Below, piece after piece: positions 4,178 to 54,701 of a stretch of 64,000 nucleotides of DNA (positions are counted from its first letter, which is position 1; each line of letters opens with the position of its first letter). This DNA is from a virus. A program made the translations under genes and the position numbers. The DNA is taken from the IMG/VR virus record IMGVR_UViG_3300032223_002784, positions 1 to 64,000 of that record; one strand, 5' to 3'. The notes under the pieces are model-generated. The model was not told where the DNA came from. It made no database searches and saw only the letters and a program-made list of their open reading frames with translations.

Positions 4178-4250
4178 ATCTTTTTCCTTTTCTAGTCGTA
4201 GTAGGACTTTTTAGTCCCGCATTTCAAAGGCTTTCTGCCCTTGAATTCTT

Positions 4251-4280
4251 ATTGTATCACTCTTGTTCTTCATCTGTCAA
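4251..4280 (-). promoter_or_regulatory. SigA-type promoter for ssb
   Basis: TTGACA-N18-TACAAT. Confidence 0.75.
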
Positions 4281-19402: not shown

Positions 19403-19432
19403 ATTATACCGCTTTGTTCCTCTTCATGTCAA
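19403..19432 (-). promoter_or_regulatory. SigA-type promoter for the fmdB-terminase operon (leaderless)
   Basis: TTGACA-N18-TATAAT with the ATG 5 nt downstream. Confidence 0.75.
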
Positions 19433-19745
19433 GTCCAACTTTATACAAGATTAAATAACCAATCAAATCATCAACATCATTATCTCCCGCATATGATTGT
19501 TCATTCTTAATACGACTTAACTTATCATCAATTCTATTTCTAAGGCCATCTAAATCATCACCTTTTGAAAAAATGCTGATAGGCTGCAAAGCTGAATTAC
19601 CATATGAAATATTCTTATCAATAAGCATATGTGCAATTTCATGACATTTTTCCAAGATTTTGTGTCCTGCTGGAGCATTTATGGCATGCAAATATAGATC
19701 ATCACATCTAAACTCTTTTACATCTTCATATATTGGCTTAAGCAT
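19404..19745 (-). CDS. nucleotide-modification-associated domain protein (Nmad1/DUF1599-like)
   Basis: KNISYGNS...RIDDKLSRI...DDLIGYLIL. Confidence 0.75.
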   Translation of the reverse strand: MLKPIYEDVKEFRCDDLYLHAINAPAGHKILEKCHEIAHMLIDKNISYGNSALQPISIFSKGDDLDGLRNRIDDKLSRIKNEQSYAGDNDVDDLIGYLILYKVGLDMKRNKAV

Positions 19746-20641
19746 TACTTATTCTCCTCTATCCATTTTTCAAGCATTATCGTTGATTTCCAGCCAAAAT
19801 CTGTCCTGATTTTAGATGTATCTGAAAGACTCATTCTAACCTCCGCAAGTCTTGGTGGAATATATTCTATCCTATCAGATATCATTGATGCAAGTTCATT
19901 AATTGAATAATTTTTTCCAGCCCCGACATTATACAATGTACCAAAAGATATACTTTCATCTGGAAGTGTGGCAGCCAAAATATTAGCATTTACTGCATCA
20001 GAAACATGCGTAAATTCTCTTTTTTGTTCGCCATCCCCGACAATTGTTAATGGCATGCCTTCTTTAAATTGCTTAAGGAATAAACCAACAACAGGGGCAT
20101 ATTGACCCTTTAAAGGTTGCCTTTCGCCATAAACGTTAAAATATCTAAAGAATACAGTATCAAGTCCGTGAAGTTTTGTATACATAGAGCAAAGTTTTTC
20201 TCCTGTAGTTTTTGATATTGAATAAGCGTTTAAACAATCATCTGGATAAGATTCAATGCTTGGGATTGGATTGTTCCCATAGGCAGATGATGTTGATGAA
20301 TAAATAACTCTTTTTACTCCTGCTTCTCTTGAGCATTGCAAAACTGTTACTGTTCCTACAGCGTTGACAGAAATTGCTTGTATTGGATTTTTTATGGCTG
20401 GCTGAATTCTTGATTCGGCAGCTAAATGAAAAACATAATCAACTTCATTATATAAATCTCTTGTATTTTCATAATCACGTATGTCTAATTTATGATTAGA
20501 TGCTTTTTCATTCCAGTAAAACTGATCATGACAATCTGAAGATTCATTATCTATTACAACAACTTCATGACCTAGATTTATCAAAGCATCAACTAAATTT
20601 GAACCTATAAATCCTGCTCCGCCTGTTACTAAAGACTTCAT
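19745..20641 (-). CDS. NAD-dependent nucleotide-sugar epimerase/dehydratase
   Basis: VTGGAGFIGS, HLAA, SSTSSAYG, YSISK, RYFNVYG. Confidence 0.93.
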   Translation of the reverse strand: MKSLVTGGAGFIGSNLVDALINLGHEVVVIDNESSDCHDQFYWNEKASNHKLDIRDYENTRDLYNEVDYVFHLAAESRIQPAIKNPIQAISVNAVGTVTVLQCSREAGVKRVIYSSTSSAYGNNPIPSIESYPDDCLNAYSISKTTGEKLCSMYTKLHGLDTVFFRYFNVYGERQPLKGQYAPVVGLFLKQFKEGMPLTIVGDGEQKREFTHVSDAVNANILAATLPDESISFGTLYNVGAGKNYSINELASMISDRIEYIPPRLAEVRMSLSDTSKIRTDFGWKSTIMLEKWIEENK

Positions 20642-21300
20642 TATTTCACTCCATTAAACGGTATAGTATAAATTTCATTATCATTTGTTCCGCCCCATTT
20701 TTTAATATAGTGAAGAACAACTGATTGTGATTGCTCTAGCCAGATTTGTGCTTGTATCGGGTCTTTTATTGTATTTGAAGCAATATGAGAAACTTGGCAA
20801 TCTACTAATGATGAACTTTTATAACCTGCAAGCTTTAATCTTCTATAATAATCGCAATCTAGATAATAACCAGATTTCTGTGGAGGCCAAGATTCGTCTC
20901 CCCACTCTCCTATTTCTTTTACAGCTTCTGTATTAAATGCACAAAAAACATCATAATGGGTAAAAACAACTCCCCATTTTTCACTTAAATTCTCAACATG
21001 ATTAATCAATCTAACATCTGAATCATCATGAATCTCACCATCATTATGCATAAAAGAATAATAATCAAAATTATTATCAATGGCATATTGCCTCATAATG
21101 TTTTGAGTTTCCATAAAACTTCTTGGATTGAATGGTTCCCAAATTCTAAAGGGTGTGCCATAATAAAGTTTCTCTGGGATTGTAGAGCCAGAATTATTAA
21201 AAATAATATAATCATCATATAGCCTTGGCTTTACACTTCTTGCTGCTTTTTCTAAAAGATCAAAATTATTTACAACTGGAATAAATATAAATTTTTTCAT
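20641..21300 (-). CDS. GT-A fold glycosyltransferase (GT2-like)
   Basis: IFIPVVN...MHNDG...VKEIGEWGDE...DCDYYRRL. Confidence 0.75.
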   Translation of the reverse strand: MKKFIFIPVVNNFDLLEKAARSVKPRLYDDYIIFNNSGSTIPEKLYYGTPFRIWEPFNPRSFMETQNIMRQYAIDNNFDYYSFMHNDGEIHDDSDVRLINHVENLSEKWGVVFTHYDVFCAFNTEAVKEIGEWGDESWPPQKSGYYLDCDYYRRLKLAGYKSSSLVDCQVSHIASNTIKDPIQAQIWLEQSQSVVLHYIKKWGGTNDNEIYTIPFNGVK

Positions 21301-21923
21301 TTAGCAAGCCAGCCAATAATTCTGCTATCTTTGCTCTCCTCTATTAAGGTATATCCTGATTTTGCAGCAAAGTCATTTACAGCTTTTCTTACACTTGGCA
21401 TAGATAAATCATCCACTAAGATATTGTTTATCTTAAGTCTCGCACACTGCTCTAGGTCCGACATTGCATATTCATATGCGTGATGACCATCTACCCATGC
21501 AAGATCAAATTTTACTTTATCATTAAACTCTGGCATTGTTTTGGTTGAATCACCTTCAATAAAAGTAATAAAATTTTCACCAAAATGTTCATTAATTAGA
21601 TCTGTGCAAGTTTTGCTTTCAGGATCAATCCCAAACGTCCATATCTTACAACTTGGAATTTCCATCTTACAGAAATAAGAATATGAGCCTTTGTGTGTAC
21701 CAACTTCTAAGATATTTTTTGGCTTTAACAAAAGAAAAGCTTTTTTATGCAAGGATGTTTGTTGAAAACTTCCATTCATATCATCCCAACCAAAAGTTGA
21801 GCCTTCAATTTGATCCCAGGTCCCAAATAACTTATTTAAAAAATCGTAATCATAATTTGGGAACATGCTGTTAAATCTTGACTTATCTATAGATAAAGAA
21901 TTTTTAAACATTATTTTGTCCAT
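21297..21923 (-). CDS. class I SAM-dependent methyltransferase (Methyltransf_24-like)
   Basis: ILEVGTHKGSY...GID...EGDS...FDLAWVDGHH-x-YE...VDD. Confidence 0.88.
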   Translation of the reverse strand: MDKIMFKNSLSIDKSRFNSMFPNYDYDFLNKLFGTWDQIEGSTFGWDDMNGSFQQTSLHKKAFLLLKPKNILEVGTHKGSYSYFCKMEIPSCKIWTFGIDPESKTCTDLINEHFGENFITFIEGDSTKTMPEFNDKVKFDLAWVDGHHAYEYAMSDLEQCARLKINNILVDDLSMPSVRKAVNDFAAKSGYTLIEESKDSRIIGWLAK

Positions 21924-35886: not shown

Positions 35887-36168
35887 TTACTTGGTTATAG
35901 TAGAGGCTGTTTTGTCTGCTGCTGCTTGAGCTGACAATTCTGCTGCCTGAGCTGCTTCAAGAGATTTAATCTCATTTTGCAAAACTAACTTTTGAGAAGC
36001 AATACTTGCAAGTTGTAAATTTACGCCATCAATGTTTGATTGATTTGGAATTGTTACTGCTTGAGACTCAAGTAGGCTAATCTGTTGATTATACTCAGAA
36101 TATAGGATATTCTTCAAGTGTTGCTGCACAATTGTGAGCTTGTCTTCTACGCTTAATTCTAGATTCAT
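35887..36168 (-). CDS. coiled-coil hypothetical protein
   Basis: GGAGG SD, GGTATAAT box upstream. Confidence 0.7.
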   Translation of the reverse strand: MNLELSVEDKLTIVQQHLKNILYSEYNQQISLLESQAVTIPNQSNIDGVNLQLASIASQKLVLQNEIKSLEAAQAAELSAQAAADKTASTITK

Positions 36169-36202
36169 TTTGTTTCCTCCTTTCTTATTATACCATTATA
36201 GC

Positions 36203-37108
36203 TTACTTTGAGTCAACTAAGACTTCTCTGTTTTCAAAGTCTAACCCCGCAAAAAGGCCATATTCAGATAAAGACCTTTCCTCGCCTAAATGTAATTTTC
36301 CAACTTTTTTAAAGACAAAAGTATCTATAATTTCTTTTTTAGAGATTACATCAATTTCTGCAAATTGATCTTGAAAATCAGACCATATTAACCTTCTCAT
36401 ATTTTTAGGCGGGTTTGTGTGGTCAAAGTATAAATGCGACATAAATTGTTTTGTTGGAACCACTGGGGTAAATCCGTTAGTATATGCCCTTGCTGCAATA
36501 AAAATTTCTTCTCCATAAAAAGCTATGTCTGTATTGGGTGTTATAAATGGCCCAACTGTAAAAACAGAGCCACCTGAGATTGATCTTGAAAAAATGTTGT
36601 CTTTTGGGTTTGGCATAGCTGTTTGTGTTGGTATCATTATATCTTTAAACTGTTGTACATTTTCATGAAAACTAATTTCTGAAACTGAATTTCCACGATC
36701 TTCGTCTATTGAGAAATCATCATTATACCAATAGTTTTTTGGATAATTAGTTATTAATGGTTTTTTAATTCCCATAGACTGATATTCTTGTGTAAGATTA
36801 ACTAAATATTCATCCCATCCATCTATAAATCTGCTATGTGAATCTATTTGAAAATAATAATCTTCTCCGTTATAAAAACTATGAGCTATTGATCTTCCAA
36901 CTCCCAGCCCTATATTCTCTGGAGCCTTGCTTACTTTATACTTTACACATTCTAGTTCTGGTATAGTAATTTCTTGTTTTTCAAAATAACAAAGATGTAC
37001 TCCAAAATTAATTTGATATTTTCCAGAACTTTTATTTATAGCATCCCTGATAGTTCTAGGTAACTCAAAATCATGATATGCAGCTAATTGAATAAATATA
37101 CTTTTCAT
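36203..37108 (-). CDS. GT60-like glycosyltransferase (Skp1-hydroxyproline/polypeptide GlcNAc-transferase family)
   Basis: SIFIQLAAYHD-x-EL, YYFQIDSHSRF-x2-GWD (DxH motif), FYGEE, ARAYTNG, HLY, LGEERSL. Confidence 0.82.
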   Translation of the reverse strand: MKSIFIQLAAYHDFELPRTIRDAINKSSGKYQINFGVHLCYFEKQEITIPELECVKYKVSKAPENIGLGVGRSIAHSFYNGEDYYFQIDSHSRFIDGWDEYLVNLTQEYQSMGIKKPLITNYPKNYWYNDDFSIDEDRGNSVSEISFHENVQQFKDIMIPTQTAMPNPKDNIFSRSISGGSVFTVGPFITPNTDIAFYGEEIFIAARAYTNGFTPVVPTKQFMSHLYFDHTNPPKNMRRLIWSDFQDQFAEIDVISKKEIIDTFVFKKVGKLHLGEERSLSEYGLFAGLDFENREVLVDSK

Positions 37109-38085
37109 AAATTTTCTCCGTATGGTTGCTCTTTATTATACTTTATTTGTGGTATTCCAGCAAATACTTCTGGCAAAGGTTCGTTGTTAAATGTGGGTTT
37201 TTTAAATAATTCTGGGTTTTCTTCACCCATTTTTTTTCTTTTTAAATAAAGATTAATACAGTATGCTGCTGCTGAGTTGCCTGCCTGATATTCTAGGTTA
37301 TTATATGACCCGTATCTTGCTTGAAACTTAGAGTATATAAAATCGTGATGATAACAATGAAAATGATAATAGTTTTTGTAATAATCTAACCAGTCAGATC
37401 CAGAATCAATGGTATCAATTACCTTAACATTTTTTTCTTTATATACAGAAGACAAGATTATTTCTGCTGCGTACAATGAACATACGCCAGTGCTTAAGCC
37501 TATTGTTCCTCTAAAAAAGGATTTGCCCCATTCACCATCATCATGCCATCCATAATATATATTTTTACAAAGATCATCTGATAACCTCATAATTTCTATT
37601 AAATTTTCTTTTGAACAAATTATTGTTGGACCCATATCGCTTATTCTTTTATACTCTGGATAACCAAACATTCTGGCTGCAACATAATAGTCTTTTATTT
37701 GATTTTCATTTGTCGTATAGTTCCCTCTTCCAATATATATATCATGTTTATTAAATGGAAATTCATTCATTTTTGAAGTAAATAAAACATCTGTATCTGT
37801 TTTACAAACATAGTCATATTCTTCAAGATATTCTGGTTTATCATATGGAAAAACTAAAGATTTAGCAAAACTATAATCTTTATAATATTTTTTTTCTGGA
37901 ACAATATATTTAAATACTTTAACATTTGTGTATAAATCTATATAATCCGCTACATCTGGATGAGCATAAATTATAAAAGTAAATCTTTCATCTAAATCCT
38001 GACCGCTAAAAGTCATTAGATTGCATTCGTCTATAAATTTATTATTCCAAAATTCATCAACATATGCTGTTATTGCAATTTTCAT
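37105..38085 (-). CDS. putative GT-A glycosyltransferase
   Basis: YDYVCKTDTDVLF (DxD), H-x-H-x-YH, SKF; start at MKIAITAY. Confidence 0.55.
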   Translation of the reverse strand: MKIAITAYVDEFWNNKFIDECNLMTFSGQDLDERFTFIIYAHPDVADYIDLYTNVKVFKYIVPEKKYYKDYSFAKSLVFPYDKPEYLEEYDYVCKTDTDVLFTSKMNEFPFNKHDIYIGRGNYTTNENQIKDYYVAARMFGYPEYKRISDMGPTIICSKENLIEIMRLSDDLCKNIYYGWHDDGEWGKSFFRGTIGLSTGVCSLYAAEIILSSVYKEKNVKVIDTIDSGSDWLDYYKNYYHFHCYHHDFIYSKFQARYGSYNNLEYQAGNSAAAYCINLYLKRKKMGEENPELFKKPTFNNEPLPEVFAGIPQIKYNKEQPYGENL

Positions 38086-38177
38086 TTTAACCCCAAATTG
38101 CTGATGCACAAGTTGCATAAACCATTTGGATCTATTTGCGCCATACTTATTGGAAAAAAGTATTTATTATTATTCAT
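38082..38177 (-). pseudogene. internally deleted radical SAM/SPASM gene remnant (inferred)
   Basis: MNNNKYFFPISMAQIDPNGLCN runs out of frame into ATCASAIWG-stop. Confidence 0.45.
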
Positions 38178-38261
38178 TTTATTGAATCACTGGTCCTTGT
38201 CTGTTAATGTATATTTGTAGTGTTGTGTAAAAATCTTATATGAATGAAGAATCATTATTTA

Positions 38262-41200
38262 TTATCCTACAGCTCCAACATATGCTGAAGCACCTGCACT
38301 ATTTTTTGCACGTACATAAATTCTTACCCATTTATAGCTTCCAGTAGTTTGTGTACCCGCTAAAGAAAGTCCAGCTGTTGTGCCTGGTGAAGTTGGTGTT
38401 GCGTTTGTATAAACATTAGAAAATGGACCTGCCTGTAACATTCCGCATTGTACATAAAAGTCATATCCCGTAGCTGCACTATGTGTTGAATCAACTGTTG
38501 GTGCTGACCAACTTGCACTAAATGGTAAAGTTACTCCCGATGCTGCTGAACTGGCTGTCAAATTATTTACCGTATTTGGTATAGTGATAGGTGCTGCAGT
38601 AGTAGTTGTAGTTGGTGCTGCAGTAGTAGTTGTAGTAGTTGTAGTAGTGGTTGTAGTAGTTGGTGCTGCAGTAGTAGTTGTAGTGGTTGTAGTAGTAGTT
38701 GTAGTAGTGGTGGTTGCACTAGTAGTAGCACCACCTAAACTTACCCAGGATCCATTTCCATTATAATTAACTCCTCTAACCCAGTAGTATCTTGTTGTTG
38801 CAGCTGCTAAGGAGTCAACATATGAGCTTGCCGTATCTAGTGCTGTGTAGGTTGCAGCTGTTGAAGAAATTGGTGCAGAGTTAATTGAAGATGAATAAAT
38901 ATCATATCTAGCAGCTGTAGCTGGGGAAGTATTATGAATATTGTTTTTAATGGTAGACCAATAGTTATATGTAGAATCATTATATTGGGTCCATGAAGGT
39001 GTAAGAGTAGTTGTACCTATTGTTACTCCTTTGGATGTTGGTGATTGTGGAGCACCAGGATAGAACCAGTTTGCCGTTGTTCCTGTTTGACCACTAACAT
39101 TTGAATATGTTGTTGTGCTGTTTTGCCCTGTACCATTTGGACCACTCCATCCAGTTGCTACCATATAATAATATCCAGCTTCTGGTATATCGTATAACTT
39201 ATTTAACGATGTATCTATTGTTCCAGAATCATATAATAAATAAGTGTTTACATTTCCATATGAAGAAACCCCGCCACCATTTGTAGCTCTATATATTGAG
39301 ACTACAATACTAGAAGCATTTGTTGATGAAACAGATATGTATCCTTGTGTACCAGAAACTCCTGAAGAGCCCTGAATAACTACAAATGTAGGTGCTGATG
39401 GAATAACAGAATATGTTGCATTAAATGACCCTAGGCCTCCTGCTGCTGTTGCATAGCTTGGAGTAATTGCTGTTGTTGTTGGCAGAGTTCCTAAATTTGT
39501 ATTAGTTCCAGTTCCATCTGTTGTTGAATATGCAGTTACATTGTTTAATGTAAATGTTCCTCCATTTGCAGTCATATCTAATGTAAAGGTTGTACCTGTT
39601 TGAGAAGCACTTGTAAATGTTCCATTTCCAGAAGTGGCTCCAGATATTGTATAATTTACTTTATAGCTTCCAGCATTTGTTGCTGATGCCCAGCTTACTC
39701 CCGCCACCTTGTTAGCTCCAACTGCAGTTATAGTGGCATAAAAAGTTCCAGAATTAGTTATGGGCCAGTAATCATCATATGTTCCATTCCCTTGGCCTAA
39801 TGACGTAGATGTAGATAAAAAATCAGTTGCTGTATGACCCGTAGATATATATGGGGATAAAACTGTATAGTTTCCATTGCTAAAACTTGTTCCATAAATA
39901 GTTTCTGTATATGAAGATGTATTAGATGGCTTTGAACCAACAACCCAATCCAACATAACAGCATTTATATAAGTTGATCCAGTTCCTTGAACTATTGTTG
40001 GTGTACTTGGAGTTGTTGGTGCAGTACTTGCATTGTACACATTATTAATTGTAAATGCACCCACAGGTGCAACAGGAACTGCTGTCTGATTTAGTTGTGA
40101 ACCAGAATACGATAGTCCTGTAGCATATTTATATTTTGGAGTAACATAAACAGTATATGTTGATCCATTCGTTAATCCCGTTGGCGAAACAGATGTTAGG
40201 GTTGAATCTGTAAGTGGATATCCAGTTAGTGATGTTCCTAAGTTATTTCTAACATCTATGTCATAAACATTTGCAGTGGTGGAAGACCATCCTTGAGTAA
40301 ATGTACCTGATCCTTGAGTTTGAGTTCCCCACGATATTGTTGGAAAATCTTGTCCAGTAGGTACTATCCCACCTGAGAATGCTGCACTTCCAGGAACCCC
40401 CTGCATTGATGAGCCTGTATATGGATACATATCTGTTGTTGTAGTATAAGAACTTCCTGGTGATGCTGTAAAGACATAAGCGGTATTAGCACTTGTATTC
40501 ACATAATTTGTAATGTTTGGCAAATAAACAGACACGCCTGCGCCACTTATATAATAATATCCATAGATGTTAACAGAAAGAGTATTTGTTCCTGTTGTAT
40601 AATAAGTCCATGTATTTCCAGATGTGAAACTTTTTATTACTATATTACTAATATTTCCTGGTGGCCCTGGCGTAATAGCTGATCCCATATATATCCATCC
40701 AGAGTACCCAAGAACGGGATCATTATTTCTTCCTCGTACCCAATAATAATAAGTAGTATTTCCAGTAAGTGGCACCACTGTATCAGTAAATGTATTGTTT
40801 GTCGTATAAGATCCAATTGGAAGAGTTCCAGTAGCGGTAACACTTGAAGATGGTGTTGTAGCTGATGAAGAACCATAATATTCAAGAGTATTATTATTAC
40901 TTTGAAATGTTACGTTATCTCCTAAATAGCTACTTTGAGCTACTAATTTCCAGTTTGACGGAATATAACTTAAAGTTATTCCTAGGGAAGTTGTAGCTGC
41001 AACTGATTGTGATGAAGTTCCTATTGGCACTCCAGGATAAAATATATTTGTGTTATATATTGTAGAATAATCGCTTGTAGTTCCATGAGAATTAGTAGCC
41101 GTTACATACATATAATAATATCCATAACTTGGTATACTATAAATTAATGTCCCAGTGCTTGATGTGGCTGTATCATATGTTGTCTGTGTTGCCCAGCTAC

Positions 41201-43025
41201 TACTACCTGATCTATATATAGTCGCAGTCATAGATGTTGCGCCTGTTGCGGTAGCTTTTATATAACCATTATTACCAATAAGTCCACTTAAGCCTTGGCT
41301 ATATGTAAATTGCAATGTTCCAGGTGCGGGTGTAGAGTTATATGGTCCATATGAGGCACTTCTTATTCCTACCCCCGCTGCGTTATAAGCGATAACACTA
41401 TAATAATATGAGCCAGCTGGCAATCCCGTATAATTAATTGCACTATTATTTGTTGTTTTTGTTGTTCCTATGTTAGTCCAGGGACCGCTAGAAGCAGAAG
41501 AATAAGATAATTGATAATATGAAGAAGAATAAAGACTTCCCCAAGTTACGTCTGCAGCTTGATCTGCTGTCCAGGTCATAACAGTAATTGATTGTTGCTC
41601 TGGTAAATCATACATTAATTGAGGAATATTATAATAAAAATCGGAATATGCCCCACTTGTTCCATTTTCTGCTATTGTTTCGCTTGTAATATATTTACCA
41701 CCACTTGTTACTCCTCCCGCTCCTGTTGCAGTTGTATATTGATATGCTGGAAGAATAAATGAGTGATTTTGGTTTTGAGATGTATCAAGCCCACCTGCAG
41801 AATAAAATATTCCAGGTACGGGGACATATGTTGTATAAACTTTTCCAGATGAGTTTGTGATATACCCTCCCGTTCCATTTGTTGTCACCGTTGAAGAATT
41901 CAGCCAATATGGAAGCCACGACACTGCATATGTACCGCTTGGTGCTGGAGTCCAAGTTCCTGTATTAATATTTACTGTTCCCCCAGCAGTGAAAGATATT
42001 GCAGAATTTGTTTTAGCAGAATCATAAATATAACCTACTGGCGAACTTGCCGTCATTGTTGGAGCAGTTACAACTACTGGAGGAGAACTCATCAAACTTG
42101 TTGATCCAAAAGCAATTACTGGTGATCCAGAATAATCTGTACCGCTATTATATTCTGTTTCAATAACATAAAAATAATTATTCAAATCTGTAGTTGTATT
42201 TGTTGTATATGTTGATATTAATTGCATATTTGTTGCATTCCATCCCTGAGATATTCCTATCCCAGAAGTTATTGGAGTAGCATTTGACACTATGCTTGCA
42301 GCATCAGTATATAGAGTTGTACTTTTATACCATTTAACTGTTCCCCTTGATGCATCTGTTGCATATGGTTCGGTATTATCCCAGTTAGCGGTCCATGTTA
42401 TTGTTGCCCCAGGCTTTAAGGTTCCAGTAGAGTATGTAAACCCATAATTAGTATTTGAAGGAGATTGAGAAACAACCCATACTTTATACCAACCTGTTGA
42501 TTGTAAATCAACCCCTGGAATATTTTGTGTATTATTATCAGTTATTTCAAAATCTAAATACTGCCCAGCCCATTGTGAGTTAATGGTAAGTCCATTATAA
42601 TTTTTTGTTCTTAAATCAACTTTTACAGCTGAAGAATACGTTCCAGATAACGGTGATCCTGTTGTGTAATCTGTTGGAATAGTTAAAGTTCCACCCGTTG
42701 AAGTGCTATTTAATAAAACACGATATGCATAGCTTGTGCCCGTAAAACCAGTATTGTCCCATGTACCATTTAATCCATAAAGTATATTGCCAGCGGTGGT
42801 GAGTCTTACATAAGTATTTACATATACGGGTGATCCAGTAGTGCTAGTTGAAAACCAGGGGGAAACTGTTGTATACGGACCTACTTTTGGCCAAAATTGT
42901 TTCCAAACTCCTACTGCAGTTTTTATATATAATCTTTTTGCAGGAGACCATGTACTTACTGCTGTTTTAATAAAGAATTTTTTAGTTGTTGTCCATGTAT
43001 TTGTTGCTGTTTTAAAATATAACAT
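38262..43025 (-). CDS. large tail fibre/adhesin with Fn3/Ig-like repeats and a mucin-like Thr-rich linker
   Basis: 1587 aa, S/T/G/Y-rich; YYYSVIAYN, YYWVRG and YVRAKN Fn3 strands; poly-Thr/AAP tract. Confidence 0.8.
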   Translation of the reverse strand: MLYFKTATNTWTTTKKFFIKTAVSTWSPAKRLYIKTAVGVWKQFWPKVGPYTTVSPWFSTSTTGSPVYVNTYVRLTTAGNILYGLNGTWDNTGFTGTSYAYRVLLNSTSTGGTLTIPTDYTTGSPLSGTYSSAVKVDLRTKNYNGLTINSQWAGQYLDFEITDNNTQNIPGVDLQSTGWYKVWVVSQSPSNTNYGFTYSTGTLKPGATITWTANWDNTEPYATDASRGTVKWYKSTTLYTDAASIVSNATPITSGIGISQGWNATNMQLISTYTTNTTTDLNNYFYVIETEYNSGTDYSGSPVIAFGSTSLMSSPPVVVTAPTMTASSPVGYIYDSAKTNSAISFTAGGTVNINTGTWTPAPSGTYAVSWLPYWLNSSTVTTNGTGGYITNSSGKVYTTYVPVPGIFYSAGGLDTSQNQNHSFILPAYQYTTATGAGGVTSGGKYITSETIAENGTSGAYSDFYYNIPQLMYDLPEQQSITVMTWTADQAADVTWGSLYSSSYYQLSYSSASSGPWTNIGTTKTTNNSAINYTGLPAGSYYYSVIAYNAAGVGIRSASYGPYNSTPAPGTLQFTYSQGLSGLIGNNGYIKATATGATSMTATIYRSGSSSWATQTTYDTATSSTGTLIYSIPSYGYYYMYVTATNSHGTTSDYSTIYNTNIFYPGVPIGTSSQSVAATTSLGITLSYIPSNWKLVAQSSYLGDNVTFQSNNNTLEYYGSSSATTPSSSVTATGTLPIGSYTTNNTFTDTVVPLTGNTTYYYWVRGRNNDPVLGYSGWIYMGSAITPGPPGNISNIVIKSFTSGNTWTYYTTGTNTLSVNIYGYYYISGAGVSVYLPNITNYVNTSANTAYVFTASPGSSYTTTTDMYPYTGSSMQGVPGSAAFSGGIVPTGQDFPTISWGTQTQGSGTFTQGWSSTTANVYDIDVRNNLGTSLTGYPLTDSTLTSVSPTGLTNGSTYTVYVTPKYKYATGLSYSGSQLNQTAVPVAPVGAFTINNVYNASTAPTTPSTPTIVQGTGSTYINAVMLDWVVGSKPSNTSSYTETIYGTSFSNGNYTVLSPYISTGHTATDFLSTSTSLGQGNGTYDDYWPITNSGTFYATITAVGANKVAGVSWASATNAGSYKVNYTISGATSGNGTFTSASQTGTTFTLDMTANGGTFTLNNVTAYSTTDGTGTNTNLGTLPTTTAITPSYATAAGGLGSFNATYSVIPSAPTFVVIQGSSGVSGTQGYISVSSTNASSIVVSIYRATNGGGVSSYGNVNTYLLYDSGTIDTSLNKLYDIPEAGYYYMVATGWSGPNGTGQNSTTTYSNVSGQTGTTANWFYPGAPQSPTSKGVTIGTTTLTPSWTQYNDSTYNYWSTIKNNIHNTSPATAARYDIYSSSINSAPISSTAATYTALDTASSYVDSLAAATTRYYWVRGVNYNGNGSWVSLGGATTSATTTTTTTTTTTTTTTAAPTTTTTTTTTTTTTAAPTTTTTAAPITIPNTVNNLTASSAASGVTLPFSASWSAPTVDSTHSAATGYDFYVQCGMLQAGPFSNVYTNATPTSPGTTAGLSLAGTQTTGSYKWVRIYVRAKNSAGASAYVGAVG
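38590..38727. repeat. (ACN)n trinucleotide repeat encoding T-rich/AAP mucin-like linker
   Basis: gtagtagttgtagt... with three ggtgctgca (AAP) units. Confidence 0.9.
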
Positions 43026-46000
43026 TTAGTATGATACCCACAAATCTCCTACGTACCCGCTTGAAGCTTGTGGGGTTGTTGCTGCTGGTGCATTATATAT
43101 TGCATATCCACGAATTATATCTCCTGCTGTAATTCCTGCTGAAGTAACGGTGTTAGGAGCAACCATTATTGTTCTCAAGAAATTAGCATTGGTTGTCAGG
43201 GTTGAGCTTCCTGCAGCACCATCGCTTGTACCAGATTGTGAAATATCTCCATACACGCTAAGGCCATTGATTGATAATCCATTAGTTCCAAGTTTTACAT
43301 ACTGTGTCCCTGCATTAAAGTACTGTGTTCCGTTATTATAATAATAATATGTATTTGATGGCACGAGGGTTTGCATAACAATTCCAGTTGATGCAAAAGA
43401 TTGAAAAACATTTGAGTTTGCCTGCATATAAATTCCACTTGAATTCATAGCTTGATAAACTCCTGTTGCTGCTTGCATATACACGCTATTTGTGGTTGCT
43501 CCTGTTGGCGAACCTGTGGGTAAAGTTGGTCCAAATAAACTTATAAATGTATTTGTACTGGCACTTAGATTAATTGTACCATTAGAGAATGTAGCCCACG
43601 AACCATATGTTGTTGATGGTGTGTATGTTGTTGGATTGGTTGAAGTATATATTAATATTCCAGCAGTTGTTGGAAAGTTTGTTGATCCCGCTTTATCAAT
43701 TATCATTCCAACTGCAGGTCCACCAGAAAGTTGTAGTCCTGTTGTTGTTGCACTAATAAATGGGCTGCTTGATCCAGTGCTAAAGTAATCCCATGCACCA
43801 GTATACATACCAATTCCATTAACTCTTGTGCCATATGAATCTTTAAATCCGCCACCGCTTGCTGATGTTCCCATTGCAAGAAATGGTGTGCCCGTAGGTG
43901 CTGTTGAATCAGTAAGAGAAGGGGACGATCCTCCCCAAGGTTGTGTACTAGTAGCTGCTGGTGCGGTTAAATAAACATTGTTATTTCTTGTTATTAAATA
44001 TGCAGTTCCAGCAACATCACCTAAAGATATCCAGTCTTTAGCTGCATCAATTGTTATAATATTTTTTGTGCTTGCTGTTCCAGCTGTTGAAACTGTAATA
44101 GCACCAGTTATATCTGCTCCTCTTGCATAAAGTTTTCCACCTAATGTGACTCTAAAAGCATTTGTTGTTGAATCACCTGCTGCACCACCTGTTCCCGCCC
44201 AAAATACGTTAGTGCCAGTTGTTGTGGCTGCACCATATATACCAGCAGAATATCCAGCTACGCTTCCATTTGATACAGATATTGTTCCTGCAGACGAGTC
44301 TAGGGCTATATTTCCATTTCCACCAGAGGATATGCTGGCTATTTTACTTGCATTAATTGTCCATCCGCCTAGATATGCAGCAGTACTATAAAGATTATAT
44401 AGCGTTCCATCTGGGGCGGTAGATGGCGTTGTAAGTAATTGTGTTGAGGTAGAGCCAGATGTCCAAGCATATAGTCCGCTAGGATTAAATATTAATCCTG
44501 GAGTGCCTGATGCTGGCAATGTTCCAGATGTTTGTGGAGAATATAATGAACCTCCAGATATCAATACGTTTCCAGTAAAAGATCCACCAGTTGCATTTAT
44601 TGGGCCAGATAGGTATGCACTTGATGCATACAGCGTTCCATCAGTTCCAATATGTGCTCCAGATGCTGGTCTAAAGATAATTACTGTTGATGTTGGAATA
44701 TTAGCTGATACGCTTGCACTTAAAACAACTGTTGTGGATGTTACAGAGCTTACAGTGGTTCCTGCTGGCAATAATGGAATTCCCGCTGCAGTATATGCAT
44801 AAACAACCATACCTGCAACTGGTGAAACTGACGCTCCATTAATTGTAGTTGCTGTAGTAGTAAATGTAAGTGTGGTTCCAGATGCAGTTGCTGCTGATGT
44901 TGTAAGCTTTAATGGCTGTACTATAGATCCAACATCTAATGTTCCACCTGTAATAATTGCATTGTTGGCATATAGCGTACCTGAAGGTGTCACTGCAAAT
45001 TTAGTATTATCTCCACCTGATGCTGTTGATCCTGCCCATATAGAATATGATGCTGCTGCAAGCGAATTAATTCCAACGTATGAACCCGCTGATCCAAGGT
45101 TTTGAATAGAATTTGTTCCAACTATCCAGTTACCAATTCTTGCATCAGTTGTGGTAAATGTTCCAGTCCCAGTAGTTACATTTCCTAGAATCTGTGTGGT
45201 TGGATTTCCAGATGAATCGTATGCAGAAATATTATTTGATTGAATTGTAACTCTTCCACCACTATTTGTTAACATGGCGGTTCCACTATTTGCATAAGTA
45301 TATGTATTTAATCCAGTTGATGCTACAGAGAATGATGTTGTTGAAGGTGCTGGGGTAGCAAGAATGGTTCCTGATGTTACATTAAATACTGAAGGATAAA
45401 CTCCAACTACTGTAACTGATTGACCCGCTACAAATGTTGAAGCAGCTGCTGGAGATATAGTATATGTTGTATATGTTGTTGTAGCCACTACATTAGAAAT
45501 TGTATAGCTTGTAGCAGCAATAATAGAACCAGTTGAAGAAATTAATAACGGTCCATTAAATGAACCTCTACTTGCATTAACTTGTCCCGATATATTGAGT
45601 GCATTTTGATCCCATACAACTTGATTTCCTGAAGCTCCTACTGAAAAATATCCATTTGAATACCATTGGTTGTAGTTATTAATATACATTCCATCAAGCG
45701 ACCCCGCTGCTGTTCCACTTACTGGAATATTTATAGGGTTTACGCCTTTACCAATTTTCATGGTTCCACTATTAACAGTCATTGCTCCAGCGAAATTACC
45801 TGCTGTAGCATTAATGGTTCCTGTTGCAGTCAAAGCATTTGTTGATGGGTCAAATTTAAATTGATCATTTAATGAAAAGTATCCAGCAGTGTCAATATAG
45901 AATGGAGTTCCATTGTTAAACCAAACGCCAGTACCTGAATAAAGTCTATTTACTGGTTGTGCAGTTTGTATATTGCTATATGTTCCTGATCCATCAATAT

Positions 46001-50537: not shown

Positions 50538-53500
50538 TTATAGTGCTGTGCCTTTGCCAAGCATATTTAATACTAGGGTGGTTTTGAATCCTTGATCAAA
50601 TGAATGAGAAACAGAATGAACAAAGTATGTTTGAGCATTAATTCTAGATAGGCTATATGTCAAAGTTATTACATCTCCCACCTGTATAAGTGGGTTTCCA
50701 AATATAGTTAATGAAGTATCTTTTGAGAACCCGTCAAATCCCTGGGCAATTACTTTTAACATTTTATTTGCAGAATCAGGGGACTGTATCCATTGAGAAT
50801 CTACTTGTGCAACTTCAGATGCATTTGCTGGATCAGTAATTTTTTCAAGCAAAACGGGATCTGATGGAGCTATAATTTCATGTGTCCAAAGATTAAGATT
50901 AATGTTAAAGGAATTTGTTGCATCTGATTGTTTGCTTAAATAAACCATGTGTGATGAGTTATTAACAATTGCCATCTTTGCCCTAAATCCAGTATTTATA
51001 GGTGTTGAGTAGGAAAGAGAATATTCATCAACATTTTGTTTTTGATAGTAAGATTGGTCAGTAGGTTGTGTGCCTGGGAAATAATACCATAGATATTCAA
51101 TTGGTAATACATCTACGGAAACTGCTGCTGGGGTAGTATATTGAACATCATATACATTTATTCCAACAACCTCTGGGGTTGTTTGCATCATGTAATTACT
51201 ATACTTTGAATATAAATTTTGTCCTTGAATCAATCCATTTAAAAATTCTCTATCTTGATACCAGTAACTTACACTTCTTTCTCTTAATGGCTTTGTTGAT
51301 GCATAAATTTCTCTTAAATTAGCAGAATTTGTTGAAGAACTAATTGTTGATGGATATGTTATACTAGTAATTGGGACTGGCAGAGTTGATGTGTAGAATC
51401 CAAACTTTGTTCCAACTGTGTTTATTGTAGATCCAGCATTAATATTTACTTTCTTTCTTAGCCCAGTCAACGTATTTTTTGCTGTTGTGCTCCACCCATA
51501 TGCAATGTCAGAATTTGATAATGTTGCAGCTGTTTGCCATCCTGTAATTTCAGTATTATTTAAAAATACTTGTATAAGCTCTCCGTTATCTTCTCCCAGA
51601 TTTGCATCTGTTCCATCTGAATAAAAATGAGCAACCTTTAATTTAAAAGCTTGATCTGTGGCTGCACGATATGAATAGTTGCTAGCTGCTCCAGAACCTG
51701 GCACTTTAACTAAAACTTTTTCAAAATTATTGATAATAGAGTTTACTGTTCCAGTTACTTCTGTCCATGCAATTACGGTTGGAGTTGTACTAACAACTTT
51801 ATATATAGCCATGATATATCTATATATTGGTGTTGTGTATAGTTGGCCAGTTTTTGGATCTAATTGATTATACTTAATAAGTTCTACAAAATATGCTCCA
51901 GATGGACTTGATCCAGTCAAATTAAAAAATAAACCAGAGGCAGATACTGCAATATCTGGGAGATCAAATTTAACTGAGTATGTTTTGTATCCAGGATCTG
52001 TAACTGATGTTGGGTAAACCAAGCTTTTTGTTGAAGCTGGAGCGGTAAGTGCTATTTTATTCACGCTTGGGTTTTTTGGATCAGAGGTTGTGCTATTAAT
52101 AATTGAAGTTGTTGAGGTTCCCGTTGTCATAGCATAAGACGAGCTTATTGTTGCTTCGGACAAACTCTTGCTTGCAATATTTGTTGCAACCCTTGTATGT
52201 GCTGAAGGAACCGTGCCAAAAAGGCCTCTTTGAACATTTGTAATGTATCCTGTCGGGGAAATAATAACATTGTAATCAGTTGCTGATGTTGGCATCCCAT
52301 TAGAATCCAGAGAAGACACCGTAAGTCCTATTTGATTGTTCTTGATGTATCTATTAATTTCAGAAGATAATTCAATGTCACTTTTAACTGATACGGTAGA
52401 TGAACCTACGGTATATTCTTTATAAACAAAAGATACAAGTTCATTTTCTATGACTGCATAACCATTATTATTCAATGTAAACGTATGGAATATATCAAGA
52501 AGATCATTTGTATTTAATTGAAATTTATTTGCAGTCTGTGACATATCAGAAGCAAGGTAATTAAATCCAACAGAATCTAGAGTGGTCTGTTGCCATACAA
52601 CATCGTTAGATGTAGTATAAATAAATGAAGGCGATTGTGCCACATTTGGATTTGTTGCATTTTGTAAAGCCAGGGATTGCTTAATTTTTGGAGTTTGATA
52701 TTTCAAAGCTATTTTTCCAGGTTTTGCTTTATTGCTTACAGAATATCCACCTTCAATTACACTTGAATCATTTATTGTAAGCTGAGATGTGCTATTGGAT
52801 AAAACATCAGCCAAGCTTTTGAAGTTCATAACCCCATACTCATCAATCCAAGCACCTATTTGATAGGCTAGGAATATGTCTGCCAATGTGTCTACAATTG
52901 TAGAATCTCTACTATTGCAATAGAAATAGGCTAAATCTAATGGCATGGTCTTGCTATTACAGATCTTATACAAAGAGTCATAATCATAATCTGTGAATCC
53001 CGCCAAATCTAAGATGTTGGTTATTACCTCAAATACTGGTTTTAGATTAGATACATAATCTGGCACTGGAGTTGTTTGAAGATATCTGGTGACATCAAAA
53101 CATTGGATCTTAACATCTTTAATGTCTGTCTCATCCCAAGTATCTGAGTAGAATACTCCTCCTGGGATATATGTTCCCGTTGGAGAGTTTACTTGAATAA
53201 AAGCTTTTGTTGTTGAGTCAAAATAAGACTTAAGCCTAAAATTAATATAAAATTTAATATTTTTTCTTAACATGTTTGACAAAATATTTGTTGATAAATT
53301 ACTTTGGCTGGCAAAAATAGGAATGAATGTTGTACTTGTTACAATAGGAATTGCAGTTAAATTAAGAGTTGCATCATTTGCATTGATTGAGGAAATTGGA
53401 ACAAAGTTGTTTTTGCTGTCTAATGACTTACTGATATCAAGAGTTTTAACAAACTTGGTTAAATCAATTTCAAGTCTTGGAGAAATTTCTACTACCTGCA

Positions 53501-54701
53501 TTCTTGATGCATCTGAGGTAAAATTTGTATTTGAAGAGGTAAATGATGAATTTGTAGTTTTGCTGATTTGAGTAATAGTTATTTTTTTAAAAGATGTGTA
53601 AGGTGAGACTAGACCCGCATTAGTAATGGCTGGCATCGTAGACCATTTTGTTTTAGTCCATGCAGTGCCTGTCCAATAGAGCACGAGCACTCCAGTAGTA
53701 AAAGAATCTGAATTGGCTGGAGGTGTTATTGAGGTACTTCCATCAACCGTAAGTATTGTTCCATCAAGATAGATATTTATGGTTGGAACAGTTATTAATG
53801 TATTAAATTTTATGACAAGCTTGTTTGAATTAATATTTTGTGAATATAGACCCGTAATGCTTAAAGATGAAGAATCTGAAACAAAATATTTGTATGGAGC
53901 CATATCATTTGCCAATGCATTTTTAAATACAGGGACTGGTGGGGATGCCATAGTAAAGCTTGGAGTTTGAATAATTGGACTTACTGGAGAATATGTTGTA
54001 GGCTGACTGGTGAGTACAGAGCTTGTTACTTTTCTGAATGCTGTTGGAAATGTAGCATTAATATTTCCAGATCCAACATATGATTCTCCTGGGCGGAAAA
54101 ATGTGAATGGGCTTTCTGTAGGCCAAAGGGGGTTGTGTTGATAATCAAAATATGTAGTCTTGTATATTTCAGGCGTAGTATAATAAATTGTTTTATTAGA
54201 GCCTTGATCAGAACTTAATGTGTTTACCTGCAATGTAAATGTAATTGATGTAATATTATCTGAAGTTCCAGATGAACCAATATATGTAACAATTTTAGTC
54301 CAACCTAGGGAATTGATTTCTGCTGAAGATGAACCAAATTGAGTTGATGAACCACCTTGAGCAAATGCACTTAACATTACTGGAGTTGCATCACTTGTTT
54401 TCATATATGTTACTATCTTATATGCATTTCCAGCACTTACTGTTGTATTAGATGTATATACTACAGATCCTGTATTGCTTGTTAATGCAAAGCTATTTGT
54501 TGTAAATCCCGCATAAGCATTAGCTCCTGTTATTCCCGCCACAATAGTGCTTGAGGTTGATACAGTTTCTGCTACACCAGTTCCTGCTACTGTAAGATAT
54601 GGTGGATTAAATAAGTTTTGATTCCATTCGGCTGAAACAACTGGTTGCAATTCAATTGAACTGGAGTTCAAAAAGATATTTGAAGATACATTACTAAGCA
54701 T
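50538..54701 (-). CDS. minor tail / baseplate-hub protein
   Basis: Follows the Dit-like gene; WIDEYGVMNF, VQRGLFGT, GNPLIQVGDVI hub motifs. Confidence 0.75.
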   Translation of the reverse strand: MLSNVSSNIFLNSSSIELQPVVSAEWNQNLFNPPYLTVAGTGVAETVSTSSTIVAGITGANAYAGFTTNSFALTSNTGSVVYTSNTTVSAGNAYKIVTYMKTSDATPVMLSAFAQGGSSTQFGSSSAEINSLGWTKIVTYIGSSGTSDNITSITFTLQVNTLSSDQGSNKTIYYTTPEIYKTTYFDYQHNPLWPTESPFTFFRPGESYVGSGNINATFPTAFRKVTSSVLTSQPTTYSPVSPIIQTPSFTMASPPVPVFKNALANDMAPYKYFVSDSSSLSITGLYSQNINSNKLVIKFNTLITVPTINIYLDGTILTVDGSTSITPPANSDSFTTGVLVLYWTGTAWTKTKWSTMPAITNAGLVSPYTSFKKITITQISKTTNSSFTSSNTNFTSDASRMQVVEISPRLEIDLTKFVKTLDISKSLDSKNNFVPISSINANDATLNLTAIPIVTSTTFIPIFASQSNLSTNILSNMLRKNIKFYINFRLKSYFDSTTKAFIQVNSPTGTYIPGGVFYSDTWDETDIKDVKIQCFDVTRYLQTTPVPDYVSNLKPVFEVITNILDLAGFTDYDYDSLYKICNSKTMPLDLAYFYCNSRDSTIVDTLADIFLAYQIGAWIDEYGVMNFKSLADVLSNSTSQLTINDSSVIEGGYSVSNKAKPGKIALKYQTPKIKQSLALQNATNPNVAQSPSFIYTTSNDVVWQQTTLDSVGFNYLASDMSQTANKFQLNTNDLLDIFHTFTLNNNGYAVIENELVSFVYKEYTVGSSTVSVKSDIELSSEINRYIKNNQIGLTVSSLDSNGMPTSATDYNVIISPTGYITNVQRGLFGTVPSAHTRVATNIASKSLSEATISSSYAMTTGTSTTSIINSTTSDPKNPSVNKIALTAPASTKSLVYPTSVTDPGYKTYSVKFDLPDIAVSASGLFFNLTGSSPSGAYFVELIKYNQLDPKTGQLYTTPIYRYIMAIYKVVSTTPTVIAWTEVTGTVNSIINNFEKVLVKVPGSGAASNYSYRAATDQAFKLKVAHFYSDGTDANLGEDNGELIQVFLNNTEITGWQTAATLSNSDIAYGWSTTAKNTLTGLRKKVNINAGSTINTVGTKFGFYTSTLPVPITSITYPSTISSSTNSANLREIYASTKPLRERSVSYWYQDREFLNGLIQGQNLYSKYSNYMMQTTPEVVGINVYDVQYTTPAAVSVDVLPIEYLWYYFPGTQPTDQSYYQKQNVDEYSLSYSTPINTGFRAKMAIVNNSSHMVYLSKQSDATNSFNINLNLWTHEIIAPSDPVLLEKITDPANASEVAQVDSQWIQSPDSANKMLKVIAQGFDGFSKDTSLTIFGNPLIQVGDVITLTYSLSRINAQTYFVHSVSHSFDQGFKTTLVLNMLGKGTAL

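What the first reader, a model, noticed from the sequence alone, without database searches (positions are those of the whole stretch)
36203..43025. Candidate phage mucin-type O-glycosylation system: GT60-like transferase and second GT directly downstream of a tail protein with a poly-Thr/Pro stalk
Seen: the 1587-aa fibre ends in a ~45-residue TTTT...AAP tract holding out a terminal Fn3-like domain. The next intact genes are a DxD glycosyltransferase and a protein with the IDSH (DxH) and GEE motifs of Skp1 GlcNAc-transferases. Established: GT60 enzymes are related to the polypeptide GalNAc-transferases that start mucin O-glycosylation, and virion glycosylation is known in some actinobacteriophages. 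Inference: the phage builds a mucin-like glycosylated stalk on its tail fibre (initiating and extending GTs, with sugar from the epimerase block) for rigidity, protease resistance or host/particle adhesion.
Basis: partly seen in the sequence, partly recalled or inferred. Interest (0 to 1): 0.8.

Follow-up and report, generated by a model that had tools for sequence, protein, structure and literature searches.

The report
Phage sugar-transferases beside poly-threonine fibre linker
An uncultured freshwater phage has a tail-fibre protein with a 42-residue threonine linker, followed by two soluble sugar-transferase genes, one from the family that starts mucin-type sugar chains in protists; enzyme and threonine tracts occur together across related phages and some bacteria, so the phage probably sugar-coats its fibre linker, though no sugar has been measured.

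Summary

- **Fibre:** the 1587-aa protein (38262-43025, minus strand) carries T15-AAP-T13-AAP-T5-AAP at aa 1438-1479. This is the only such tract in the 92-kb phage contig. A 108-aa Ig/Fn3-like end domain follows it.
- **Second transferase (301 aa):** a true Pfam PF11397 (CAZy GT60) member with invariant DxH, GEE and a C-terminal His. Its model is closest to mucin-type polypeptide GalNAc-transferases.
- **First transferase (337 aa):** DUF7164, with a retaining GT-A fold and an invariant DxD.

- In syntenic relatives, 8 of 8 loci with GT60 have a Thr-rich tract in the upstream fibre gene, against 9 of 42 without GT60 (strict definition: 7 of 8 against 2 of 42).
- The tract-bearing proteins belong to several unrelated families.
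- In bacteria, Thr-repeat proteins are about 14-fold enriched right next to GT60 genes.
- DUF7164 and GT60 are adjacent in 17 of 22 viral loci and fused in both domain orders.

The epimerase block does not travel with GT60. The split into initiating and extending enzymes, and the suggested benefits, are untested.

This scan has flagged the same pairing in many other genomes. I found no published description.

The parts
38262..43025 (-). 1587-aa distal tail-fibre-like protein (P0001), the last large gene of the tail module; proposed glycosylation substrate
   Evidence: ORF and translation. It lies downstream of the tape measure gene (PF10145, 55216-60129) and a minor tail protein (phrog_10359, 50538-54701). 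Its N-terminal and middle parts are homologous to the last fibre gene of syntenic relatives.
38589..38714 (-). Thr tract T15-AAP-T13-AAP-T5-AAP (aa 1438-1479); proposed O-glycosylated linker
   Evidence: It is the only such tract in the contig. Homologous fibres in GT60-negative relatives join the same Fn3-type modules without a Thr run.
38265..38588 (-). 108-aa C-terminal Ig/Fn3-like domain held beyond the tract
   Evidence: Weak Pfam match to Ig_J_second (E 0.0016, below cut-off). Fn3-type sequence signature shared with modules of related fibres.
38112..38171 (-). Remnant (about 20 codons) of a radical SAM/SPASM gene that is intact between the tract protein and GT60 in the closest relatives
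   Evidence: tblastn: 90% identity over 20 aa to the N-terminus of L003:7914-8927 and to 11 further loci. Those ORFs are Radical_SAM + SPASM by Pfam.
37105..38118 (-). DUF7164 glycosyltransferase (P0002, 337 aa; likely start at Met12, about 38085): soluble retaining-type GT-A with DxD
   Evidence: Pfam PF23741, E 6.8e-19. Invariant D108-x-D110, E219, D238, H254, H257. AF2 model pLDDT 88; best PDB folds are GT6 ABO transferases and alpha-1,3-GalT. No hydrophobic segment that looks membrane-spanning (maximum 19-residue Kyte-Doolittle mean 1.38).
36203..37108 (-). GT60-family (PF11397) glycosyltransferase (P0003, 301 aa): soluble, single domain, DxH type; proposed polypeptide Thr O-glycosyltransferase
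   Evidence: Pfam 109.3 bits against cut-off 21; phrog_24687. Invariant D89-x-H91, E200-E201, H225. AF2 pLDDT 95.6; the top 46 of the PDB fold matches listed are ppGalNAc-transferases. 4-nt overlap with P0002. No hydrophobic segment that looks membrane-spanning (maximum 19-residue Kyte-Doolittle mean 0.97).

Best explanation
The phage makes two soluble, cytoplasmic glycosyltransferases late in infection, from genes coupled to the end of its tail-fibre module. The GT60-family enzyme (P0003) recognises the extended poly-Thr linker of the 1587-aa fibre protein and, using a host UDP-sugar (most likely UDP-GlcNAc) and a divalent metal held by D89/H91/H225, attaches sugars to Thr hydroxyls. This is what protist GT60 enzymes do on T8 runs of mucins. 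The DUF7164 enzyme (P0002) works in the same pathway, either extending the first sugar or adding a second kind of sugar to the same tract. The result would be a densely O-glycosylated, mucin-like stalk that holds out the terminal Ig/Fn3-like domain.

Shown here: family and fold of both enzymes, conservation of their catalytic motifs, the tract, and the comparative association.

Inferred: the acceptor, the donor sugar, the order of action and the benefit to the phage.
For: 1. Family. P0003 is PF11397 at 109 bits with invariant DxH, GEE and a C-terminal His. Its nearest solved folds are GT27 ppGalNAc-transferases. GT60 and GT27 share the DxH variant and polypeptide Ser/Thr O-glycosylation (PMC7185993). 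GT60 enzymes start mucin-type chains in protists (PMC8724618). The T. cruzi enzyme uses KPPTTTTTTTTKPP and Mn2+ (PMC3769586).

2. Natural experiment. Among 80 contigs with 71-91% identical DnaB and the same downstream synteny, the slot after the last fibre gene varies.
- Any Thr-rich tract upstream: 8 of 8 GT60-positive loci against 9 of 42 GT60-negative loci.
- Strict definition (T run of 8 or more, (PT)5 or more, or at least 60% Thr): 7 of 8 against 2 of 42, Fisher p = 2.8e-6.
- After dereplication: 6 of 7 against 2 of 38, p = 2.3e-5.

3. Phage GT60 clade. In the 54-row clade (SH-like support 96), 34 of 41 non-redundant loci with at least 3 kb of upstream sequence have a Thr-tract ORF within 2.5 kb, mostly on the same strand. 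A distant viral GT60 clade has 0 of 24.

4. Diversity of the tract proteins. With tracts masked, all tract-bearing ORFs across the fetched loci fall into 22 clusters. Those next to GT60 include large fibres, 720-aa (PT)n proteins and 110-120-aa proteins. Shared ancestry of one fibre gene therefore cannot explain the link.

5. Bacteria. Thr-repeat ORF ends occur at 14.2 per 100 kb within 500 bp of GT60 genes, against 0.5-1.9 further out. Examples are Magnetospirillum, Pseudoduganella, Sterolibacterium, cyanobacteria and Acidobacteria.

6. Link between the two transferases. DUF7164 and GT60 are adjacent in 17 of 22 DUF7164 viral loci. They are fused in L246/L247, P0180, P0204 and P0215, in both domain orders.

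7. Neither enzyme has a hydrophobic segment that looks membrane-spanning. They overlap by 4 nt.
Against: - No glycan, mass shift or enzyme activity has been measured.
- Most bacterial PF11397 genes sampled (59 of 78) have no Thr-tract neighbour. Family membership therefore does not by itself prove a polypeptide acceptor.
- Five of 41 phage-clade loci lack any Thr tract within reach.
- One GT60-negative relative (L102, no PF11397 in its 70.6-kb record) still has a (PT)10 run.
- Fibre genes and accessory genes travel as one exchangeable cassette, so part of the association could be linkage rather than an enzyme-substrate relation.
- The closest GT60 relatives carry a radical SAM/SPASM partner that this genome has lost. 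The pathway here may therefore be reduced or altered.
Confidence: 0.66

Rival explanations
1. Linkage only. The Thr tract is just a flexible, unmodified linker. The two transferases act on something else, such as a host envelope polymer, a receptor (for superinfection exclusion) or a small molecule. They merely sit in the same swappable fibre-end cassette.
For: PHROGs files the family under 'moron, auxiliary metabolic gene and host takeover'. The two GT genes have lower GC (0.30 against about 0.37), as expected for an acquired accessory cassette. Most bacterial homologues lack a Thr-tract neighbour.
Against: The association holds across several unrelated tract-bearing protein families. It also holds in bacteria of several phyla, with the repeat protein ending 4-90 bp before the GT, and in divergent gene orders. 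The enzymes look soluble, with no hydrophobic segment of membrane-spanning strength. The closest characterised relatives are polypeptide transferases.
Confidence: 0.17
2. The transferases glycosylate phage DNA or make a nucleotide-sugar-derived product for DNA hypermodification. The Thr tract is unrelated.
For: Phages often encode DNA glycosyltransferases. The genome has a separate epimerase, unknown-protein and methyltransferase block.
Against: The genes lie at the end of the tail module, not with replication or nucleotide-metabolism genes. No hydroxymethylase was looked for or seen here. Co-occurrence with Thr tracts, and the fusions with prolyl-hydroxylase-type domains in relatives, point to protein substrates. 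The epimerase block does not co-occur with GT60.
Confidence: 0.04
3. The cassette is decaying here. With the radical SAM partner deleted, the pathway no longer works in this genome even if it glycosylates Thr tracts in relatives.
For: Only about 20 codons of the radical SAM/SPASM gene remain. Of the 13 loci in the query's nearest GT60 subclade, 11 keep it intact; L246 and the 3-kb fragment L149 show none.
Against: Both GT genes are intact, and their catalytic residues match residues that are invariant across homologues. About half of the phage clade (27 of 52) has GT60 and Thr tracts without any radical SAM gene, so that gene is not obligatory.
Confidence: 0.1

Closest known systems
CAZy GT60 polypeptide alpha-GlcNAc-transferases of protists (T. 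cruzi pp-alpha-GlcNAcT on mucin Thr runs; Dictyostelium Golgi enzymes; cytoplasmic Skp1 Gnt1)
   Same: Same Pfam family (PF11397). DxH metal motif. Single catalytic domain without a ricin-type lectin domain. Like Skp1 Gnt1, probably soluble and cytoplasmic. The proposed acceptor is a run of Thr, like the T8 run of T. cruzi mucins (PMC8724618, PMC3769586, PMC7185993).
   Different: Encoded by a bacteriophage. The substrate would be a virion fibre linker made in the bacterial cytoplasm. Donor sugar and anomeric linkage are unknown. It is paired or fused with a DUF7164 transferase, and in relatives with radical SAM/SPASM and prolyl-hydroxylase-type enzymes.
GT27 polypeptide GalNAc-transferases (animal mucin-type O-glycosylation)
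   Same: Best structural matches of the P0003 model (Foldseek E about 3e-9, TM by query 0.5-0.59). DxH motif. They act on Ser/Thr-rich unstructured tracts.
   Different: No sequence-level match to any solved structure. No lectin domain, no membrane anchor, not in a secretory pathway.
Virion glycosylation in mycobacteriophages (Che8, Rita; Freeman et al. 2023, as cited in PMC11256854 and PMC12582341)
   Same: Actinobacteriophage-like siphovirus whose own glycosyltransferases are proposed to modify its structural proteins.
   Different: There the capsid (and, from my memory of the paper, the tail tube) is modified, and the enzymes lie near the right genome end. Here the target would be a poly-Thr linker of a distal fibre, and the enzyme is GT60. 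The primary paper was not available, so enzyme families could not be compared.
Retaining GT-A transferases of family GT6 (ABO GTA/GTB, alpha-1,3-GalT); plant and algal peptidyl-Ser alpha-galactosyltransferase and Hyp arabinosyltransferase (Pfam HPAT)
   Same: The P0002 model aligns to GT6 structures (E about 6e-9). The ESM Atlas model aligns at TM 0.70-0.72 to HPAT-family clusters that glycosylate extensin-type Ser/Hyp tracts. It has a DxD motif.
   Different: No Pfam or sequence link to GT6 or HPAT. TM to GT6 is only 0.44-0.48 by query. The Atlas resemblance is a lead, not a test.

Membership tests
CAZy GT60 / Pfam PF11397 (GlcNAc) | Significant match to the family profile above the curated cut-off | tested here: met
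   109.3 bits against cut-off 21, E 3.7e-31. All 120 listed metagenome homologues carry PF11397.
CAZy GT60 / Pfam PF11397 (GlcNAc) | DxH in place of the GT-A DxD, plus an acidic xED-type motif and a C-terminal His | tested here: met
   D89-S-H91, E200-E201 and H225 are invariant in 25 sequences down to 23% identity. The motif definition is from PMC7185993. Assigning E200/E201 and H225 to the xED and C-His positions is inference.
CAZy GT60 / Pfam PF11397 (GlcNAc) | GT-A fold closest to GT27, without a ricin-like lectin domain | tested here: met
   AF2 pLDDT 95.6. The top PDB matches are all ppGalNAc-T catalytic domains. The protein is 301 aa with a single domain.
CAZy GT60 / Pfam PF11397 (GlcNAc) | Transfers alpha-GlcNAc from UDP-GlcNAc to Thr or Hyp of a polypeptide | not testable with these tools
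   Only genomic context supports a polypeptide acceptor. The donor is unknown.
Skp1-type Hyp-GlcNAc pathway (prolyl 4-hydroxylase + GT60) | A prolyl 4-hydroxylase partner that creates the Hyp acceptor | tested here: not met
   No homologue of the PF13640 oxygenases of related cassettes anywhere in the 92-kb contig. Such oxygenases do accompany GT60, or are fused to it, in relatives with (PT)n or Pro-rich proteins.
Pfam DUF7164 (PF23741) | Profile match; GT-A fold with DxD | tested here: met
   E 6.8e-19, 68 bits against cut-off 27. D108-x-D110 invariant. Model pLDDT 88 with GT6-like fold matches.
Phage virion glycosylation system | Glycans covalently attached to a virion protein, dependent on phage glycosyltransferases | not testable with these tools
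   Needs mass spectrometry or glycan staining of particles or of co-expressed proteins.

The most novel reading that the evidence does not exclude
Phages and bacteria carry modular cassettes in which the modifying enzymes match the low-complexity linker of the neighbouring protein. Poly-Thr goes with GT60 (with or without DUF7164 and radical SAM/SPASM). (Pro-Thr)n goes with a prolyl-hydroxylase-type oxygenase plus radical SAM plus GT60. Poly-Pro goes with the oxygenase alone. GT60-oxygenase and GT60-DUF7164 fusions also exist. This would be a prokaryotic and viral counterpart, and possibly the evolutionary source, of eukaryotic mucin-type and Hyp-linked (Skp1, extensin-like) O-glycosylation, operating in the cytoplasm on virion appendages.
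Probability: 0.4. Interest if true: 0.85.

Novelty: new variant of a known kind. Interest (0 to 1): 0.7.

Why it matters
Mucin-type O-glycosylation is regarded as a eukaryotic trait. Virion glycosylation in phages is known from only a few mycobacteriophages. A soluble GT60 enzyme that sugar-coats poly-Thr fibre linkers would give three things. First, a simple bacterial-cytoplasm system for making mucin-like glycopeptides. Second, an explanation for the common Thr and Pro-Thr linkers in environmental phage fibres. Third, a testable link between prokaryotic or viral GT60 genes and the origin of eukaryotic polypeptide O-glycosylation. It could also bear on how aquatic phages resist proteases or stick to particles and hosts.

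Tried and rejected
- Megablast of 36000-44000 against GenBank phages: no match.
- tblastn of P0001 and P0002 against phages: no match. P0003 hit only four jumbo Xanthomonas/Stenotrophomonas phages at 23-25% identity.
- Sequence searches of the PDB with P0002, P0003 and the P0003 profile: nothing useful.
- A sequence-level link of DUF7164 to HPAT/SGT1 enzymes, suggested by the ESM Atlas, was not found. No member of alignment A1, and none of ten profile hits, matched Pfam HPAT. The resemblance stays a lead.
- The epimerase block as sugar supplier was rejected on co-occurrence.
- L102, a GT60-negative relative with a (PT)10 run, has no PF11397 anywhere in its 70.6-kb record. It is a real exception.
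- Literature searches for GT60 or PF11397 in phages or bacteria, and for Thr-rich fibres with glycosyltransferases, found no description of this pairing.
Freeman et al. 2023 is not held.
- Complex prediction was not used, because enzyme-substrate pairs are outside what it tests well.


Full report
**What the window is**

The window is the first 64 kb of a 91,984-bp linear IMG/VR viral contig, estimated 86% complete. All genes run on the minus strand.

The order is typical of a large siphovirus:
- tape measure protein (PF10145, 55216-60129);
- a 172-aa protein;
- a 1387-aa minor tail protein (phrog_10359);
- a 163-aa protein with a weak H-lectin match;
- a 2313-aa protein;
- the 1587-aa protein of the finding;
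- two glycosyltransferase genes;
- small genes and an HNH endonuclease;
- DnaB, primase and a DnaE-type polymerase, the last 57% identical to that of Streptomyces cluster BE phages.

GC is about 0.37, but 0.30 over the two transferase genes. The host is probably a low-GC freshwater actinobacterium. That is inference.

**The observation**

The 1587-aa protein ends with T15-AAP-T13-AAP-T5-AAP (aa 1438-1479, window 38589-38714), followed by a 108-aa domain. Codons are mixed ACT/ACA/ACC, and the DNA shows a 48-nt repeat unit. No other ORF of 100 aa or more in the whole contig has such a tract.

The terminal domain gives only a sub-threshold Ig-like match. It does share the Fn3-type signature of modules in related fibres.

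The next gene (P0002, 337 aa) is Pfam DUF7164. The one after it (P0003, 301 aa) is PF11397, the Pfam family of CAZy GT60.

**The enzymes**

P0003:
- It scores 109 bits against a cut-off of 21.
- Across 25 homologues down to 23% identity, D89-x-H91, E200-E201 and H225 never change.
- Its AF2 model (pLDDT 95.6) finds polypeptide GalNAc-transferases as the top 46 of the PDB matches listed.
- There is no sequence-level match to any solved structure.

P0002:
- It has an invariant D108-x-D110, plus E219, D238, H254 and H257.
- Its model (pLDDT 88) has a retaining GT-A fold nearest to the GT6 ABO transferases.
- The ESM Atlas places it structurally nearer to plant and algal peptidyl-Ser and Hyp glycosyltransferases (TM 0.70-0.72). 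No sequence method confirmed that.

Neither protein has a hydrophobic segment that looks membrane-spanning. The two genes overlap by 4 nt.

**Does GT60 go with Thr tracts?**

Four independent comparisons say yes.

1. Loci found with P0003. A search of viral contigs gave 67 loci. Nearly all loci with at least 38% identity have poly-Thr, (PT)n or T/S/P tracts in an ORF just upstream on the same strand. The ~24%-identity clade has none nearby. In a tree, the query falls in a 54-row phage clade (support 96). Of 41 non-redundant loci with at least 3 kb of upstream sequence, 34 have a tract ORF within 2.5 kb.

2. Syntenic relatives found with DnaB. A search with this phage's DnaB, which is blind to GT60, gave 80 contigs with 71-91% identical DnaB and conserved synteny. 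The slot after the last fibre gene varies among them.
   - All 8 loci with a close GT60 have a Thr-rich tract upstream, against 9 of 42 without GT60.
   - Under a strict definition the counts are 7 of 8 against 2 of 42 (p = 2.8e-6).
   - After dereplication they are 6 of 7 against 2 of 38 (p = 2.3e-5).
   - Homologous fibres in GT60-negative relatives join the same modules without a Thr run.

3. Unrelated tract proteins. With tracts masked, all tract-bearing ORFs across the fetched loci fall into 22 clusters. Those next to GT60 include large fibres, 720-aa (PT)n proteins and 110-120-aa proteins.

4. Bacterial genomes. PF11397 homologues (25-32% identical) are widespread. Thr-repeat proteins end within 500 bp of them at 14.2 per 100 kb, against 0.5-1.9 further away. 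Cases are scattered over Magnetospirillum, Pseudoduganella, Sterolibacterium, Sphingomonas, cyanobacteria and Acidobacteria.

Exceptions exist. Five phage-clade loci have no Thr tract within reach. One GT60-negative relative has a (PT)10 run.

**The second transferase and other partners**

- DUF7164 and GT60 are adjacent in 17 of 22 DUF7164 viral loci. Three of the five exceptions end at the contig edge.
- They are fused in L246/L247 and in P0180, P0204 and P0215, in both domain orders. The two enzymes therefore act in one pathway.
- In 25 of 52 phage-clade loci, a radical SAM/SPASM gene lies within 3 kb of GT60, directly upstream of it where checked. These include 11 of the 13 loci in the query's nearest subclade; L246 and the 3-kb fragment L149 show none. 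None of 70 GT60-negative relatives has one.
- This genome keeps only about 20 codons of that gene, at 38112-38171.
- In the (PT)n sub-clade, a PF13640 prolyl-hydroxylase-type oxygenase is also present. GT60-oxygenase fusions exist in L077 and L154.
- This contig has no such oxygenase. A Hyp-dependent, Skp1-like route is therefore unlikely here.

**The epimerase**

19745-20641 is an NAD-dependent epimerase/dehydratase, and 21297-21923 is a methyltransferase. Homologues of the epimerase occur in 0 of 8 GT60-positive related records, three of which are 79-83% complete. They occur in 4 of 12 GT60-negative ones. It is not part of the cassette.

**What is known**

- GT60 enzymes initiate mucin-type chains in protists and lack the lectin domain of GT27 (PMC8724618).
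- GT27 and GT60 share the DxH variant, and GT60 is reported only from prokaryotes and protists (PMC7185993).
- The T. cruzi enzyme glycosylates KPPTTTTTTTTKPP with Mn2+ (PMC3769586).
- Phage virion glycosylation is known for mycobacteriophages Che8 and Rita (cited in PMC11256854).
- I found no paper describing GT60 in phages or its pairing with Thr tracts.
- Earlier notes of this scan report the same pairing in many other genomes. They are not independent evidence.

**Verdict**

It is not supported for the epimerase link. The division of labour between the enzymes and the benefit to the phage remain untested. All evidence is computational.

Noticed in passing
window 38112-38171 (-): About 20 codons matching (90% identity) the N-terminus of a radical SAM/SPASM enzyme that sits intact directly upstream of GT60 in the closest relatives (L002, L003, L229-L236, L239, L249). 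The gene has been deleted here. A radical SAM gene is next to GT60 in 25 of 52 phage-clade loci and in 0 of 70 GT60-negative relatives.
   Followed up: yes
L006, L009-L022, L083 (e.g. L009:5925-10888): A four-gene cassette: a (Pro-Thr)n repeat protein, a PF13640 prolyl-hydroxylase-type 2OG oxygenase, a radical SAM/SPASM enzyme and GT60. This suggests Hyp and/or Thr glycosylation of PT repeats.
   Followed up: partly
L077:3483-4991; L154:1309-3114; L025-L030 (e.g. L028:4227-8189): Single ORFs fusing GT60 (PF11397) with a PF13640 oxygenase occur in a phage contig and in an alphaproteobacterial MAG. A Thr-tract-free phage sub-clade has a JmjC hydroxylase and two PF13640 oxygenases directly upstream of GT60, and a PPPIIATPPP protein a few kb away. 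This recalls the Skp1 P4H + Gnt1 pathway.
   Followed up: partly
L246:7998-9779, L247; proteins P0180, P0204, P0215: DUF7164 and GT60 are fused in one polypeptide in both domain orders, once with a TPR spacer.
   Followed up: yes
L165, L177 (Magnetospirillum), L198, L224 (Pseudoduganella), L213, L203, L185, L207, L210, L194: Bacterial GT60 homologues have a Thr/Pro-repeat protein as immediate neighbour, for example (APTPTTTG)n ending 22-67 bp before the GT. This suggests mucin-like protein glycosylation in free-living bacteria.
   Followed up: partly
L074, L080, L094/L095 (GT60-negative relatives): Fibre-end proteins here have poly-Pro or (STPP)n tracts and a PF13640-like oxygenase homologue in the same slot, but no GT60. 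The oxygenase also occurs in loci where I flagged no Pro tract, so this match is less clean.
   Followed up: partly
window 19404-21923 (-): Block of a phrog_1485 protein, an NAD-dependent epimerase/dehydratase, a 219-aa protein with a weak galactosyltransferase PHROG match (E 6e-4) and a methyltransferase. Its target is unknown, and it does not co-occur with GT60.
   Followed up: partly
window 38085-38118 (-): The first 11 codons of the listed P0002 ORF have no counterpart in homologues, whose consensus starts at MKIAITAY. The real start is probably Met12.
   Followed up: no
proteins P0182, P0189, P0190, P0192: Very long proteins (1,659-2,869 aa) carry 5-8 tandem DUF7164 domains. Their origin is unknown.
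   Followed up: no
L004:1507-2592 and 3968-4864: Two PF11397 paralogues lie in one phage locus that lacks a Thr tract in the 4 kb available upstream.
   Followed up: no
window 36001-38000: GC falls to 0.30 over the two transferase genes against 0.36-0.38 around them. This is consistent with a separately acquired cassette.
   Followed up: no
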